DNA of 64,000 bases. Source: the human T2T-CHM13v2.0 reference genome, Homo sapiens. Within the stretch, counting starts at the first letter, position 1. Each line of letters starts with the position of its first letter. Position numbers and translations under genes: made by a program. The stretch lies in NCBI RefSeq assembly GCF_009914755.1, contig NC_060927.1, one strand, 5' to 3'. A model generated the notes under the pieces. That model worked only from the letters and a program-made list of their open reading frames with translations, was not told the origin of the DNA and made no database searches. This document shows, in pieces, positions 3,874 to 59,194 of the stretch.

Positions 3874-4106
3874 CATGGTCATTGCTGTACAAGGGTGAAA
3901 TCTGTCACAGTCCACAGCTTCCACGGTGAGGTTATATTGCTTCACAGACTCACAGTCTGGCTGTGTGGTAAGTTCGATCATTCCAGAGAGAGGATGAATC
4001 CAGAATCTTTGTATAACCTGGGTGTCTCCATTGGCTATTTCGTATGTCACACAATTTGGTGGGTGCTCTTCATCAATGGCAATCACTCTTCCAACTTTAT
4101 AGAATG
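3874..4106 (-). pseudogene. Cadherin pseudogene exon 12 (EC5): AFYKVGRVIAIDEEHPPNCVTYEIANGDTQVIQRFWIHPLSGMIELTTQPDCESVKQYNLTVEAVDCDRFHPCTAMTM; donor apparently mutated
   Basis: ttattggcag|CA TTC...ACC ATG|ATAAGT; 233 nt. Classic cadherin repeat (VGRVxAxD, YxI, FxIxPxSG, YNLTVEAxD). Confidence 0.92.
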
Positions 4107-4949
4107 CTGCCAATAACATTTTATAAGGCTCATTCTCATCATGCAGATACACTGCTTTAAAAAAAACTTAACATGTCTTTGCCTACCAAATAGTATCACA
4201 GTTTCTCAAAGGATCAGCCTCTATTCTTTTGGATAATGAAATATGTTTGAAGACCTTCAACTCAACATAACGGAAAACAAATTCAGAGAAAGTCCTCTAT
4301 CACTTTAAACCATTTGCCTTGAGTCAAATAACATAAGTTAACAGTAACTTTATAATAATAATGATTAGCTTACATGCACTGCATGAATATTTTCTACTAG
4401 GCATCATGCTAAGATTAGCATCAGATAACGGTTCACAGCCCAGACTCTGAAACCAGACTTCCTAGGTTTCAAGTCTCAGGTCTATCATTTATTTGTGCAA
4501 CTCATTGGAAGATTCTTCAACCGCTCCAGCCCTCATATTATTTATCTGCAAACTAGGAATAATATCTACCATACAAAGTTGTGAGGAGTGAATGAGCTAA
4601 AATGTATAAAGCACTTAGAATAGTGCCTGGTATGTAAGTAAATACTAAGTAAAAATTAGCTATTATTTAATTGAATTATCTCATCGAATCTTCTCAACAG
4701 GCTTATTATATATCCACTATTACAGTCCTCATTTTATAGATAAGGAAATTAGGTCTAGTGGTATTAAGTAACTTGCTCACTGTCCAGAGCTAATAGTGGT
4801 AGAATCAGGATTTAAACTGGTACCTGATGATTCTACAGCCCATATTTTTAAAATCACTTTCTGTAATTCCAGTGTGCAATACCCCCAGATAATCTCTTAG
4901 AAGAGAAATGGGTATGATCTATTGGCTGCATAACAAATAGGCTCAAATT

Positions 4950-5264
4950 ACTATTATTATTATTATTGTTATTATTATTTTGAGACAGGGTCTCACTCCA
5001 TCACCCAGGCAGGAGTGCAGTAGTGCAACCATGGCTTACTACAACCTCAACCTCCTGGCTCAAGTGATCCTCCTGCCTCAGCCTCCTGAGTAGCTGGGAG
5101 TACAGGTGCATGCCACCACACCTAAGTAATTAAAAAAAAAAAATTTTAGAGACGAGGTCCCGCTATGTTGCCAAGTCTGGTCTCAAACTCCTGGGCTCAA
5201 GCAATCCTTGCACCTTGGCCTCACAAAGTGCTGGAATTACAGGTATGAACCACTGCACCCAGTC
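4950..5264 (-). mobile_element. Alu (AluJ-like)
   Basis: Reverse Alu consensus with an (ATT)n-derived tail. Confidence 0.9.
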
Positions 5265-5448
5265 TAGACCCAAACTCTTTATCCTTCCGATGTTCATGCT
5301 TTTTGCCATTTAACCCCTTAGTGCCCCTCCAATTCTGACTTGGGGCCCAGCCCGCAACTTGTTTTGGCCAATGGGATATTAGCAAATCTGATGCCAGCAG
5401 AAACCTGAAAGGTACTTGCATGATCAGGCTTGCCTTTCTTGTGCACTT

Positions 5449-5933
5449 CTTTTTTTTTTTTTTTTTTTTTTTGAGACGGAGTCTGGCTCTGTCACCCAGG
5501 CTGGAGTACAGTGGCATGATCTCGGCTCTCAGCTCACTGCAACCTCCACCTCCTGGGTTCAAGTGATTCTCCTGTCTCAGCCTCCCAAGAAGCTGGGATT
5601 ACAGGTGCCCATCACAATGCCTGGCTAATTTTGTTTTTGTTTTTGTTTTTTGAGATGGAGTCTCGCTCTGTCCCCAAGGCTGGAGTGCGGTGGGGCAATC
5701 TCCGCTCACGGCAACCTCCACCTCCTGAGTTCAAGCGATTCTCCAGCCTCAGCCTCCAGAATAGCTGGGATTACAGGCGCCCACCACCACACCCAGCTAA
5801 GTTTTGTATTTTTAGTAGAGACAGGATTTCACTATGTTGGCCAGGCTGGTCTCGAACTCCTGACCTCAGGTGATCCGCCTAACTAGGCCTCTCAAAATGC
5901 TGGGATTACAGGCACGAGCCACCATGACTGGCC
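5449..5933 (-). mobile_element. Alu trimer (full Alu plus an extra right monomer) inserted in an MLT1-like LTR
   Basis: poly-T plus right arm at 5449-5628, then (TTTTTG)n plus a full Alu at 5630-5933; MLT1-like flanks about 5270-6210. Confidence 0.85.
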
Positions 5934-6476
5934 TCTTTGCACTTCCTCCTTTTCCCTGAAAACAAGCTCAGGCTAGCCTGCTGGAAGATGAGAGAGGAGC
6001 CAACCTTCCCAGTCACCCCAGCCGAAGCCAGAATAGATCAGCTGAAAGCTAGCCAACTCACAATTTTGAGCAAGCCCAGCCATGACCAGAGAGACAAGCC
6101 AGCCACTTCTTAGACTCATGGGCTAAATAAGTGTTTATTGTTGTATTACACTAATATTTTGTGGGTCTTATTACATAGCATACTTACAGTAGTAGGTAAC
6201 TGGCACCACAAGTTTACCCCTCAATCATTTTTGCCTGAACTGTAAACTCCAGGGCAGGCATCTTATCTCTACCATTTAGTGAAATACCACTATACAATGG
6301 CTGGCTCACTAACACAAGTACAGCACATTTTGGTTGCTAATAACCAAGAATAAAAAATTAATATAAAGCAATCATTTCATTGCTGTGCCCGCCACTTTCA
6401 ACCTAGTAAGGTTTCTTTCTCTGTTTGTATCCTCCTTTTACCAAGGTTCCCTATCAGTCTCTAATAATATGTTATT

Positions 6477-6620
6477 TTTCGTTTGTTATTATTATTTTTT
6501 AATAGAGACAGAGTCTCACCATGTTGATCAGGCTGGTCTTGAACTCCTGGCCTCAAGTGATCTGCCCACCTCAGCCTCCCAAAGTGCTGGGATTACAGGA
6601 GTGAGCCACCATGCCCTGCC
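6477..6620 (-). mobile_element. Free left Alu monomer (FLAM-like)
   Basis: Left-arm Alu sequence flanked by TSD ctaataat(a/g)tgttatt. Confidence 0.8.
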
Positions 6621-56771: not shown

Positions 56772-56900
56772 CAAACTGTTATTTAAGTAAGCAGGGCTGG
56801 CATTTTATTATGCATTTCCTGTTAAAATAGTTAAATAAAAAACTCTTCACTTTCTGAAATTAAGTCAATAACTAAAAATAATAAAAATAGAGCCAGGCAC

Positions 56901-57220
56901 GGCCAGGCGAGGTGCCTCGCACCTGTAATCCCAGCACTTTGGGAGGCCGAGGCGAGCGGATCACGAGGTCAGGAGATCAAGACCATCCTGGCTAACACAG
57001 TGAAACCCCATCTATATTAAAAATACAAAAAACTAGCCGAGCATGGGGGCGGAGGCCTGTAATCCCAGCTACTCCGGAGGCTGAGGAAGGAGAATGGTGT
57101 GAACTCGGGAGGCGGAGCTTGCAGTGAGCCGAGATCATATCACTGCACTCCAGCCTGGGTGACAGAGCAAGGCTCTGTGTCAAAAAACAAAAACAAAACA
57201 AAAAAAAAAACAAAAAAAAA
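56901..57220 (+). mobile_element. AluY-like element inserted into the 5' end of an older Alu monomer (host about 56892-57345)
   Basis: TSD aaaatagagccaggcac on both sides. Confidence 0.9.
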
Positions 57221-57803
57221 TAGAGCCAGGCACACTGGCTCACACCTGTAGTCCCGACTACTTGGGAGGCTGGGGTGGGAAGATCACCTGCGCCTCAGTT
57301 CAACTTGGGAGGTATAGCAAGACCCCTTCTCTAGAATAAAATAAAAAGAATAAAAATAATCATAGGCTCATAGCTGTATTACAAAGACAAATTGTGAAAA
57401 AATAGAGAATGCTATGTGAAAATGCTGGCATAGAATGATGGAAACTGAGATGCTGCCTCTTCATACTCAAGGACAAGAGGAGATTAAAAAAAAAATTGAT
57501 CTCCAGAAAGACAGAACCAATAGAAAAAATATATTAAAAATAAAATTAATTTAAAATTAAAAAAAAAAACTAGTTGAACTCTGTTCATGGAGATTGTAAA
57601 ATAATGCCTGACAGCTGGTGTAGAGCACTGGGAGTGGTAGCGACTGCGGTAAACTGAGAACTTGTTCCCACCCAACTGGGGTGCCACTCCTCTGCCTATC
57701 TGGGAATGTGGGCTGAGTTGCCAGGGACTCTTATTTTTTTATGAGGATCCTGAAATGGAAATTTTTATGTGAAATCTTCTGATATTCAAAATATCCTGTA
57801 GGC

Positions 57804-58033
57804 CAGGGTTGTCCAATCTTTTGGCTTCCCTGAGCCACAATGGAAGAAGAAAAATTGTCTTGGACCACACATAAAATGCACTAACAAAAATGATGGCTGA
57901 TGAGCTAAAAACATTTTTTTAATCACAAAAAAATCTCATAATGTTTTAAGAAAGTTTATGAATTTGTGTTGGACCACATCCAAAGCCATCCTGGGTCACC
58001 TGTGGTCCACGGGCCACACGTTGGACAAACTTG
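57804..58033. mobile_element. MER30 (hAT-Charlie MITE)
   Basis: cagggttgtccaatcttttggcttccctg...ttggacaaacttg; 8-bp TSD ctgtaggc/ctataggc. Confidence 0.88.
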
Positions 58034-59151
58034 CTATAGGCCAAACATGTCTGAGCATCTCCACTGTGTGTCTCCAGATTCAAGATAAAAATCTTTACCC
58101 AAACACATAAAAAAGTCAAAATATAACAAACTAAGTTGAAATAAAATATTTCTTACATTTCATTAGATCTTTCAGTCCTTAAGATACCTATCATTTATCC
58201 TTATTTTACTTGATTTTTTTTGTTGTTGTGAATAATACAGTTTGGCTCTTTTCCAATTCTAGAAGTGGTTGATTCTAAAGCAAATGGTTGAATTCATCAA
58301 TTGAGTTGTTTTATGAATCAATTCATGCCATAATGAGAGAAAAAAAATTTAAACCGTTGTTATTATGCATTCAAAATTTTTGTGATTCATTTCTAAACTT
58401 TTGGGTTTAATTTTTTAGCGTAAATGTAATTCATATTCTTTTCCTAAGTCAAACAGTAAAGTCTATAAAGTAAAAAATTTTAAATCTCCTACATATTTCT
58501 CCCCACCTCTGCTGCTCTACCACTTTCACTCGTAATCTCCAGAAACAATCAGTTAAATCTTTGTTATACATTATTTCAGGATTTTCTATGCCTGTTGGCA
58601 TGTGAATGTAGATAGGTGTTTTTAAAAAGATCTTCTTGTGTTCATAGCTTTAGCACATCCTGCCTCCACAGAACTCCACAGTACACCACAGATTACCTCC
58701 TTACCTGCGCGTCGGAACTCCCACACCAACCTTCTTCTTTTAATGGCTCCAATACCCATAGTATGCATGAAGCACCATTCATTTAATCCTCCACTGGTAG
58801 ACATATGGGTTGCCTCTAGCTTTTGTTATTACAAATACAACTACATATATCCTTATATCATTGTGTACTTGTGTAGGATAGCTGTCCAGAGGTGGAATGC
58901 TGGCTCTGAGGCTGAAGATTTCAGATGCTGGCAGGTATTTCCAAATTGCTCTCCAAAGAGCTTACTCCCATTGATATCAACAGCATCTGAGAGGACATTT
59001 TGATTCATATGTTGTTTTTCCAGTGGGGTACAGCCCAGAGCACTGGGCAATTTTAAAGGCCAACACTGAGAAGTTAGAGAGTAAATGCCAACTGATAGAC
59101 TACCAAATAATTATTTCAAAGCTATATGAGTCTTAAGTTAGAAATACTAAC

Positions 59152-59194
59152 CTGGGGCAGCAATCAACACAAAAAACAAATGAAAAAAAGGCAT
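59152..59194 (-). pseudogene. Cadherin pseudogene exon 1 (coding part): start codon and signal peptide MPFFHLFFVLIAAP
   Basis: Minus strand reads aaatcATG CCT TTT TTT CAT TTG TTT TTT GTG TTG ATT GCT GCC CCA G|GTTAGT. A at -3, 43 nt, phase-1 donor. Joins exon 2 to give MPFFHLFFVLIAAPDVLA/FP, a hydrophobic core with a plausible VLA cleavage site. Confidence 0.8.

What the first reader, a model, noticed from the sequence alone, without database searches (positions are those of the whole stretch)
3874..59194. A dead CDHR3/CDHR4-like cadherin gene reconstructed exon by exon on the minus strand
Seen: 11 exons (59194-59152, 50858-50662, 45947-45859, 31697-31603, 28167-28061, 27275-27217 plus 25593-25456, 23176-22999, 20651-20489, 16049-15947, 12400-12302, 4106-3874). 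Their phases chain consistently, apart from the exon 2/4 junction, into a signal peptide plus most of EC1-EC5. Only 3 exons appear in the ORF track. Established (recalled): CDHR3 has the same exon succession and motifs (PxIxNxNP, LDFE, DSGGL, NDNP.C, LxCxDxD, FWIxP.xG). It is a ciliated-epithelium cadherin and the rhinovirus-C receptor. Inference: this is an intron-containing paralogue too divergent to be a recent CDHR3 copy, so a unitary gene loss. It is probably intact in other mammals (Cdhr17/Cdhr18-type) and functionally little characterised.
Basis: partly seen in the sequence, partly recalled or inferred. Interest (0 to 1): 0.9.

Follow-up and report, generated by a model that had tools for sequence, protein, structure and literature searches.

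The report
Dead human cadherin gene CDHR18P
This is the decayed remnant of a cadherin gene (CDHR18, an ancient sister of the rhinovirus-C receptor CDHR3) that is predicted intact in many other mammals but broken in humans; it is already catalogued as a pseudogene, so the finding is correct but not new.

Summary
All 12 pieces (11 exons) lie where stated on the minus strand. A profile of 24 full-length orthologues hits 11 of the 12 pieces, in gene order; exon 1 is too short and shows only weakly by tblastn. Orthologues of about 860 aa are predicted in many mammals, some named Cdhr18 or Gm281, with relatives in lizards, a frog and sharks. True CDHR3 is only 33% identical and sits on chromosome 7, but it shares intron place and phase at 13 of 13 resolved junctions.

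The locus is therefore a unitary, unprocessed pseudogene of an old CDHR3 paralogue, which RefSeq already lists as CDHR18P.

- The relic is longer than the finding and the annotation. Six more exons (rest of EC5, EC6, membrane span, tail) lie just left of the window, so 17 of 18 ancestral exons survive over about 71 kb.
- Lesions: exon 3 gone, two stop codons, a 1-nt deletion, an L1 inserted in exon 7, two GT-to-AT donors and a lost exon-15 end.
- The human sequence differs at 8.1% of positions invariant in intact orthologues (median 1.4% for those orthologues).

Novelty: already known. Interest is low.

The parts
59152..59261 (-). E1: RefSeq first exon. The ancestral ATG is at 59194 and encodes the signal-peptide start MPFFHLFFVLIAAP. 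GT donor.
   Evidence: (tblastn E 0.23-0.56); hub table
50662..50858 (-). E2: N-terminal half of EC1, open frame, AG/GT sites.
   Evidence: HMM E 1e-31
45948..50661 (-). Interval where ancestral E3 (orthologue residues 82-138, second half of EC1 with LDFE and DVNEPP) should lie. No trace was detected.
   Evidence: sub-profile over 45900-50700, both strands, X at stops; best score 1.2 bits; no hit to HMM positions 85-132 anywhere in the window.
45859..45947 (-). E4: start of EC2, with an in-frame TGA at 45897-45895 where orthologues have R (K in two of those aligned).
31603..31697 (-). E5: EC2, open frame.
   Evidence: E 1.2e-12
30356..30479 (-). Non-ancestral exon of NR_197413.1. It looks like an antisense Alu and brings a stop 50 codons after the old ATG.
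   Evidence: the hub lists part of it as masked repeat; no HMM hit. The Alu assignment is recalled, not tested.
28061..28167 (-). E6: end of EC2 (DSGGL). A 1-nt deletion at about 28146/28145 shifts the frame (orthologues read VVD).
27217..27275 (-). E7a: 5' piece of exon 7. Its last 16 nt (27232-27217) are one copy of the target-site duplication.
25610..27216 (-). 5'-truncated L1 in sense orientation, inserted in exon 7, with an A-rich tail. The ORF at 26219-26941 matches L1 ORF2p residues 908-1147.
   Evidence: E 2.5e-154; about 14 mismatches and 1 indel in 240 aa, counted by eye; the hub lists 25601-27218 as masked
25456..25593 (-). E7b: 3' piece of exon 7 (start of EC3). It is preceded by the second duplication copy at 25609-25594, which differs at 1 of 16 positions. 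Removing the L1 and one copy restores the frame.
   Evidence: E 7.7e-27
22999..23176 (-). E8: EC3 (INDNSPFC), open frame.
   Evidence: E 7.4e-29
20489..20651 (-). E9: EC4, open frame.
   Evidence: E 3.3e-28
15947..16049 (-). E10: EC4, open frame.
   Evidence: E 3.3e-13
12302..12400 (-). E11: EC4/EC5 boundary, open frame. Also a RefSeq exon.
   Evidence: E 4.3e-12; hub table
3874..4106 (-). E12: EC5 (FWIHPLSG), open frame. Its donor at 3873-3868 reads ATAAGT, not GT.
   Evidence: Pfam 35.5 bits; E 3.7e-47
3625..3873 (-). Read-through of the dead E12 donor, which forms the 3' end of the RefSeq transcript. AATAAA lies about 25 nt before 3625.
   Evidence: hub table
1..3624 (-). In-window part of ancestral intron 12, with no exon in it. 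The gene goes on LEFT of the window, which this field cannot hold. Window place = chr3 position minus 63798000.
- E13: -151 to -322 (chr3:63797678-63797849). EC5/EC6, open frame.
- E14: -1512 to -1756 (63796244-63796488). EC6, open frame.
- E15: -3138 to -3338 (63794662-63794862). Membrane span; last 6 codons and donor lost.
- E16: -4522 to -4586 (63793414-63793478).
- E17: -6188 to -6236 (63791764-63791812). Donor reads ATATGG.
- E18: -12027 to -12184 (63785816-63785973). TAA at -12044 to -12046; same final stop as the orthologues.
   Evidence: (E 1.5e-32, 7.4e-47, 2.7e-38, 2.7e-5, 8.7e-5, 7.2e-12). One search found no profile hit with E below 19 in window 1-3843.

Best explanation
This is CDHR18P, the unprocessed, unitary pseudogene left by the death of CDHR18 in the human lineage.

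The ancestral gene had 18 coding exons. It encoded a type-I membrane protein of about 860 aa: signal peptide, six extracellular cadherin repeats, one membrane span, and a short tail with a motif it shares with CDHR3. CDHR18 and CDHR3 are old paralogues with the same exon plan.

In humans 17 of the 18 exons are still recognisable over about 71 kb of the minus strand, from window 59194 down to -12184. The reading frame is broken at eight places:
1. Exon 3 is absent.
2. TGA in exon 4.
3. A 1-nt deletion in exon 6.
4. A 1.6-kb L1 in exon 7.
5. Exon 12 donor GT changed to AT.
6. The end of exon 15 and its donor are lost.
7. Exon 17 donor GT changed to AT.
8. TAA in exon 18.

The old promoter and several old splice sites still make non-coding RNA. 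The RefSeq transcript joins E1, an Alu-like exon, E6, E11 and E12. It then runs through the dead E12 donor to a poly(A) signal.

Shown here: the exon map, the lesions, the family placement and the absence of a second copy. Inferred: the order and date of the lesions (N-terminal ones probably older, several C-terminal ones after the split from Old World monkeys) and the nature of the exon-15 deletion. No protein product is expected.
For: Exon map:
- Searches cover the window; searches cover the six exons left of it.
- The conceptual read-through, with X at every break, is 861 codons and ends at the orthologues' stop.

Lesions:
-.

Orthologues:
- 62 of 66 candidates matched E12 at E 0.001 or better. 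All are mammalian cadherin-related proteins or unnamed records, and 61 of 62 carry PF00028.
- 120 proteins at E 1e-10 or better were found with a bat orthologue. They include proteins named Cdhr18 or Gm281, and lizard, frog and shark relatives at 46-53% identity.

Tree (29 rows, quick method):
- The human relic joins the Aotus and Chlorocebus partial models (SH-aLRT 99).
- That group sits with lemur and galago (92), inside a CDHR18 clade of 23 rows (100).
- CDHR3 lies outside that clade.

Single copy: only this locus exceeds 34% identity in the human genome.

Relaxed constraint:
- The human relic differs at 16 of 198 positions that are invariant in 24 orthologues (8.1%).
- In a leave-one-out test the intact orthologues have a median of 1.4% and a range of 0-7.0%; lemur differs at 1 of 177.
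- The changes include lost cysteines (C234Y, C329R) and residues in Asp/Asn-rich linker stretches (N226H, D441Y, D566N).

Transcription:
- The hub table lists NR_197413.1.
- The ORF from the old ATG is 50 aa.
- Protein record P0017 is identical to human E10-E13, spliced through a cryptic donor inside E12.
Against: - Exons 8 to 14 carry no stop or frameshift and keep their AG/GT sites apart from the E12 donor. Decay is therefore modest, and a residual product from an internal start cannot be formally excluded.
- The human relic is only a few points more diverged from orthologues than lemur is (77.0% against 83.1% to squirrel, 77.4% against 79.4% to the bat).
- The 'intact' orthologues are predicted proteins. 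None was checked at DNA or RNA level here.
- Synteny with rodent Cdhr18 was not tested.
- The tree is the quick version. The careful search did not finish.
Confidence: 0.95

Rival explanations
1. A dead duplicate or retrocopy of CDHR3 or CDHR4 made recently in primates, not the loss of a separate old gene.
For: Most database names for the orthologues read 'cadherin-related family member 3-like'. The only solved structure that matches EC1-EC2 is CDHR3, 6psf_U, at E 8.2e-29.
Against: - Introns are kept at every exon, so it is not a retrocopy.
- CDHR3 and the CDHR18-type protein of the same species share 33% identity.
- CDHR18-type proteins exist in sharks, a frog and lizards at 46-53% identity and form their own clade with support 100.
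- Within that clade the human relic sits with other primates.
Confidence: 0.01
2. The locus still makes a useful product: either a short secreted peptide (old signal peptide plus Alu-derived tail, 50 aa), a truncated cadherin fragment from E10-E13, or a regulatory RNA.
For: - It is transcribed (hub: transcribed_pseudogene).
- The ancestral ATG and signal-peptide exon are kept, and the 50-aa ORF is open.
- P0017 is a 213-aa ORF from a spliced product of E10-E14.
- E8 to E14 have no stops.
Against: - The 50-aa ORF is mostly Alu-derived.
- The P0017 ORF lacks a signal peptide and ends in an out-of-frame stretch.
- Conserved cysteines and Asp/Asn residues in linker stretches are lost.
- No expression level, ribosome or peptide data were available here.
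Confidence: 0.03
3. A polymorphic pseudogene: some people carry an intact allele.
For: None found. Only one human assembly was examined.
Against: There are eight separate lesions, including a missing exon and an L1 whose duplicated target sites have already diverged (1 of 16) and whose ORF2 piece differs at about 6% of residues from the human L1 ORF2 protein in the PDB. These cannot all be recent.
Confidence: 0.005

Closest known systems
CDHR18P (RefSeq/HGNC: cadherin related family member 18, pseudogene; NR_197413.1)
   Same: It is this locus. Four of the five RefSeq exons are ancestral coding exons (E1, E6, E11, E12), according to the hub table.
   Different: The RefSeq span ends at window 3625. 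Six further relic exons (E13-E18, window -151 to -12184) lie outside it and outside any gene in the hub table. Seven ancestral exons inside the span (E2, E4, E5, E7-E10) are not in the transcript shown. One transcript exon is a later Alu-like addition.
Cdhr18 / Gm281 of rodents and the 'CDHR3-like' proteins of other mammals
   Same: These are the orthologues. They share 70-82% identity with the human read-through over 640-790 aligned residues, have the same length and the same stop, and the gene tree follows the species tree.
   Different: They are predicted as open frames of about 840-870 aa, whereas the human copy is broken at eight places. Their function is uncharacterised. The only mentions found in print are gene lists.
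CDHR3 (chromosome 7; rhinovirus-C receptor, recalled)
   Same: - Same architecture from signal peptide to tail, colinear over 830 residues.
- Same exon order, with intron place and phase equal at 13 of 13 junctions resolved with GT-AG.
- A shared tail motif, FDGEAIDPV.G..YE[YF]NS[RK]TGARKWK.
   Different: It is only 33% identical, at a different locus, and in a separate clade that split before sharks and tetrapods diverged. Human CDHR3 is open.

Membership tests
Cadherin superfamily (Pfam PF00028) | Match to the cadherin repeat profile above the curated cut-off | tested here: met
   Human E12 alone scores 35.5 bits against a cut-off of 28.8. Orthologues score 132.8-179.9 bits, with 2 to 5 matched stretches. 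The other six single human exons scanned were too short to pass: one scored E 0.19 and five gave no hit.
Cadherin superfamily (Pfam PF00028) | Calcium-binding linker motifs between repeats (DxNDN, DxD, LDxE types; recalled definition) | tested here: inconclusive
   Read by eye. INDNSPF, ENENDEAP and FDFE are present. NVNNKDP has become NVHNKDP, VFDDL has become VFYDL, and the LDFE and DVNEPP of EC1 are lost with exon 3.
CDHR18 orthologue group | Closest relatives are proteins named Cdhr18 or Gm281, at much higher identity than any paralogue | tested here: met
   E12 is 72-96% identical to 59 of the 62 hits. Named Cdhr18 proteins are P0049 and P0213; Gm281 is P0216. CDHR3 is at 33%.
CDHR18 orthologue group | Falls inside the clade at the place the species tree predicts | tested here: met
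   quick tree: with the Aotus and Chlorocebus models (99), with strepsirrhines (92), inside the clade (100).
CDHR18 orthologue group | Conserved neighbours (synteny with the rodent locus) | not testable with these tools
   No annotated non-human mammalian genome was available. The hub table gives SNTN, C3orf49, THOC7 and ATXN7 as the human neighbours.
Unitary (unprocessed) pseudogene | Introns kept at ancestral places | tested here: met
   16 of 16 AG acceptors and 13 of 16 GT donors. Phases equal those of CDHR3 at 13 of 13 resolved junctions.
Unitary (unprocessed) pseudogene | Frame-disabling lesions | tested here: met
   Eight lesions.
Unitary (unprocessed) pseudogene | No intact copy of the same gene elsewhere in the genome | tested here: met
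   the eight best matches, all 68-83% identical, lie in this locus. Every other match is 34% identical or less. Caveat: the search used its stricter first look, so weak matches may be missed.
Unitary (unprocessed) pseudogene | Intact orthologue in other species | tested here: met
   24 predicted proteins of 840-870 aa were used, and more appear. These are predicted models only.
CDHR3 (as a member) | Orthology to the chromosome 7 gene | tested here: not met
   33% identity, a separate locus and a separate clade.

The most novel reading that the evidence does not exclude
CDHR18 may have been lost several times independently in mammals: in anthropoid primates, and perhaps in carnivores, odd-toed ungulates and even-toed ungulates. 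In those groups only fragments (camel, yak, sheep, lynx) or nothing turned up among predicted proteins, while bats, pangolins, rodents and marsupials keep full-length models. Repeated loss of the sister gene of a virus receptor could mean the gene was costly, for example as an entry point for a pathogen, rather than merely dispensable. Separately, the human relic is still spliced across exons that no annotation covers (P0017).
Probability: 0.07. Interest if true: 0.55.

Novelty: already known. Interest (0 to 1): 0.15.

Why it matters
It matters little for discovery, because the pseudogene has a name and a RefSeq record.

Its modest value is as a worked example and a correction:
- The annotated span misses the last third of the dead gene (EC6, membrane span, tail).
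- The lesion list gives markers for dating the loss across primates.
- The dead donor of exon 12 explains where the RefSeq transcript ends.

If the living gene in rodents or bats turns out to have a role like that of CDHR3, the human loss would become a lineage-specific difference worth knowing about when mouse results are carried over to people.

Tried and rejected
- Pfam on seven single exons. Only E12 passed; the others are too short, so this says nothing against them.
- human E2 alone against solved structures gave no hit at E up to 10, although the full orthologue matches CDHR3 EC1-EC2.
- search for exon 3 in 45900-50700 with a sub-profile, on both strands, with X at stops. The result was at chance level only (1.2 bits).
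- Pfam on four repeat ORFs gave nothing. The PDB search then identified two of them as L1 ORF2.
- the representative search with a bat orthologue was swamped by giant multi-cadherin proteins. Two end-to-end hits of similar length (P0153, P0198, 34-35% identity) did not match the CDHR3 structure at E 1e-30, so they could not serve as labelled CDHR3. A named CDHR3 (P0238) came instead.
- the careful tree did not finish in 288 s, so the quick tree is reported.
- the one paper listed for 'CDHR18P' does not show the term in the 300,000 characters of text held.
- the seven 'Gm281' papers are on motif and binding-site methods and similar topics and do not look relevant by title and abstract; they were not opened.
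- Dating the L1 by subfamily was considered and dropped, because no consensus library was at hand.
- The order of the lesions could not be tested, because no primate DNA was available.
The six exons left of the window are now described inside one in-window row and in the text.

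
Full report
**Observation**

Translating each piece shows a cadherin-like frame at every one. The flanks are AG and GT, apart from the two ends created by an insertion and the donor at 3874.

As a test against chance, I built a profile from 24 full-length orthologues and ran it over all 4373 six-frame pieces of the window.
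- Eleven pieces scored E below 0.001 (3.7e-47 to 6.9e-4).
- Four other listed hits had E from 2.5 to 7.6. One is the part of exon 4 behind its stop codon, two are on the plus strand and one is a stray piece on the minus strand.
- Exon 1 (14 aa) is seen only by tblastn, at E 0.23-0.56, but it sits exactly at RefSeq exon 1.

**What it is**

The last in-window exon passes the Pfam cadherin cut-off by itself (35.5 bits against 28.8).

Searching proteins with that exon gave 62 hits among 66 candidates. All are mammalian, and most are named 'cadherin-related family member 3-like'. One is named 'Cadherin related family member 18', and one is rat LOC289926.

A second search with a bat orthologue (120 hits at E 1e-10 or better among 7997 scored candidates) added:
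- another protein named Cdhr18 and one named 'Gm281';
- marsupial proteins;
- lizard, frog and shark proteins at 46-53% identity;
- a true CDHR3 of the gundi at 33%.

In the gundi the two paralogues align end to end at 272 of 830 residues.

A quick tree of 29 rows places the sequences as follows:
- The human relic groups with the partial Aotus and Chlorocebus models (support 99).
- That group joins lemur and galago (92).
- All of these lie inside a CDHR18 clade of 23 rows (100).
- CDHR3 lies outside. The careful tree did not finish.

In the human genome the only matches to the bat protein above 34% identity are this locus's own exons. Human CDHR3 lies on chromosome 7 and reads open.

**Exon plan compared with CDHR3**

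I mapped human CDHR3 exons with the gundi protein and searched for GT-AG junctions that restore it. Of the 17 junctions:
- 13 were resolved, and all 13 have the same place and phase as in the relic (phases);
- the E10/E11 junction fits only with a GC donor;
- three were not resolved.

**The gene is longer than the finding**

The genome search showed matches just left of the window. After fetching 20 kb there, the profile found six more exons:

| Exon | Window coordinates | E-value |
|---|---|---|
| E13 | -151 to -322 | 1.5e-32 |
| E14 | -1512 to -1756 | 7.4e-47 |
| E15 | -3138 to -3338 | 2.7e-38 |
| E16 | -4522 to -4586 | 2.7e-5 |
| E17 | -6188 to -6236 | 8.7e-5 |
| E18 | -12027 to -12184 | 7.2e-12 |

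They encode the rest of EC5, EC6, the membrane span and the tail. With X at each break, the read-through is 861 codons and stops where the orthologues stop. According to the hub table, these six exons lie outside CDHR18P (span 3625-59261) and outside any other listed gene.

**Lesions**

1. Exon 3 (orthologue residues 82-138) is not detectable between exons 2 and 4 or anywhere else in the window.
2. TGA at 45897-45895 in exon 4, where orthologues have R, or K in two of those aligned.
3. A 1-nt deletion in exon 6 at about 28146/28145.
4. A 1.6-kb 5'-truncated L1 in sense orientation splits exon 7. It has an A-rich tail and a 16-nt target duplication whose copies differ at one position. Its ORF matches L1 ORF2p residues 908-1147 at E 2.5e-154, with about 14 mismatches and one indel in 240, counted by eye.
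5. The exon 12 donor reads ATAAGT.
6. Exon 15 lacks its last six codons and its donor. The sequence goes on as TATGTGA, which suggests a deletion of about 20 nt that took the exon end and the G of GT. This is inferred.
7. The exon 17 donor reads ATATGG. Two orthologue models that read through this donor begin GM, which implies GGTATGG.
8. TAA in exon 18, where orthologues have mostly E, also Q, K, V or A.

**Decay of the coding sequence**

At positions invariant in all 24 orthologues the human relic differs at 16 of 198 (8.1%). In a leave-one-out test the orthologues themselves have a median of 1.4% and a range of 0-7.0%. Lemur differs at 1 of 177.

Of the 12 human changes that the Aotus model covers, 9 are ancestral in Aotus. 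Overall identity to the squirrel orthologue is 77.0% for human and 83.1% for lemur.

**Hints on timing (weak, from predicted proteins only)**

- The Aotus model runs uninterrupted through the exon 7 insertion point and covers E7-E13.
- The Chlorocebus model has E12 joined to E13, E17 joined to E18, and E at the site of the human TAA.
- Both models lack E1-E6.

This fits old N-terminal lesions and younger C-terminal ones, but it needs primate DNA to be shown.

**Transcription**

The RefSeq transcript uses E1, an Alu-like exon (30479-30356), E6, E11 and E12, and then reads through the dead donor to 3625. An AATAAA lies about 25 nt before that end. The ORF from the old ATG is 50 aa.

Protein record P0017 is identical to human E10-E13. 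It is spliced through a cryptic donor inside E12 and enters E14 by an upstream acceptor. Some transcripts therefore reach the unannotated exons.

**Literature**

Full-text searches gave the following:
- 'CDHR18P': 1 paper. The term is not in the part of the text that is held.
- 'Cdhr18': 2 papers. In one I read the passage: it is a gene list from mouse islets.
- 'Gm281': 7 papers, on motif and binding-site methods and similar topics, not relevant by title and abstract; they were not opened.
- 'Cdhr17': none.
- 'unitary pseudogenes' with 'cadherin': 23 papers, 15 listed; none of the listed titles or abstracts concerns this locus.

I found no dedicated paper in that library. The name and the pseudogene status come from the hub's RefSeq table.

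**Verdict**

This is an already known transcribed unitary pseudogene.

Noticed in passing
window 16494-18456 (ORF 16730-18121, minus strand): A second L1 fragment lies in the intron between E9 and E10. It has an open 463-aa frame that matches L1 ORF2p residues 813-1275 at 1020.9 bits, so it looks like a young element, younger than the one in exon 7.
   Followed up: partly
window 30356-30479, minus strand: The one non-ancestral exon of NR_197413.1 looks like an exonised antisense Alu. It has a T-run before its AG and a GT donor. The Alu assignment is from recall; the hub lists part of it as masked repeat.
   Followed up: partly
window 3916-3874 and L009 (E13, E14): Protein record P0017 shows a spliced product that uses a cryptic GT inside E12, 42 nt before the dead donor. 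It joins this to E13 and then to an acceptor about 27 nt upstream of E14, which shifts the frame.
   Followed up: partly
window 25336-25416 and 60603-60750, plus strand: Per the hub table, alternative C3orf49 exons lie 40 nt from E7b, and 1.3 kb head-to-head from the CDHR18P start. No CpG island is seen at 57-63 kb (CpG observed/expected 0.08-0.54).
   Followed up: no
L015 (G000:C7:107330518-107331440): The human CDHR3 intron between its exons 10 and 11 cannot be closed with a GT donor. A GC donor (A|GCAAGT) in phase 1 would fit.
   Followed up: partly
PDB chain 9d2f_J: A solved chain named cilia- and flagella-associated protein 61 matches both L1 ORF2 fragments over about 48 residues (E 2e-10 and 1.6e-11). 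That chain therefore seems to hold an L1-derived stretch.
   Followed up: no
proteins P0045, P0050, P0061, P0062, P0236, P0237: Camel, yak, sheep and lynx gave only fragments of 192-484 aa. No carnivore, horse, pig, cow or whale protein of full length appeared, while bats, a pangolin and shrews or moles did. This could mean further independent losses, or it could reflect limits of the word-based search.
   Followed up: no
E17-E18 (window -6188 to -12184) and CDHR3 (L017): The cytoplasmic motif FDGEAIDPV.G..YE[YF]NS[RK]TGARKWK is shared by CDHR3 and CDHR18-type proteins across 33% overall identity. It is a likely docking site of unknown partner.
   Followed up: no
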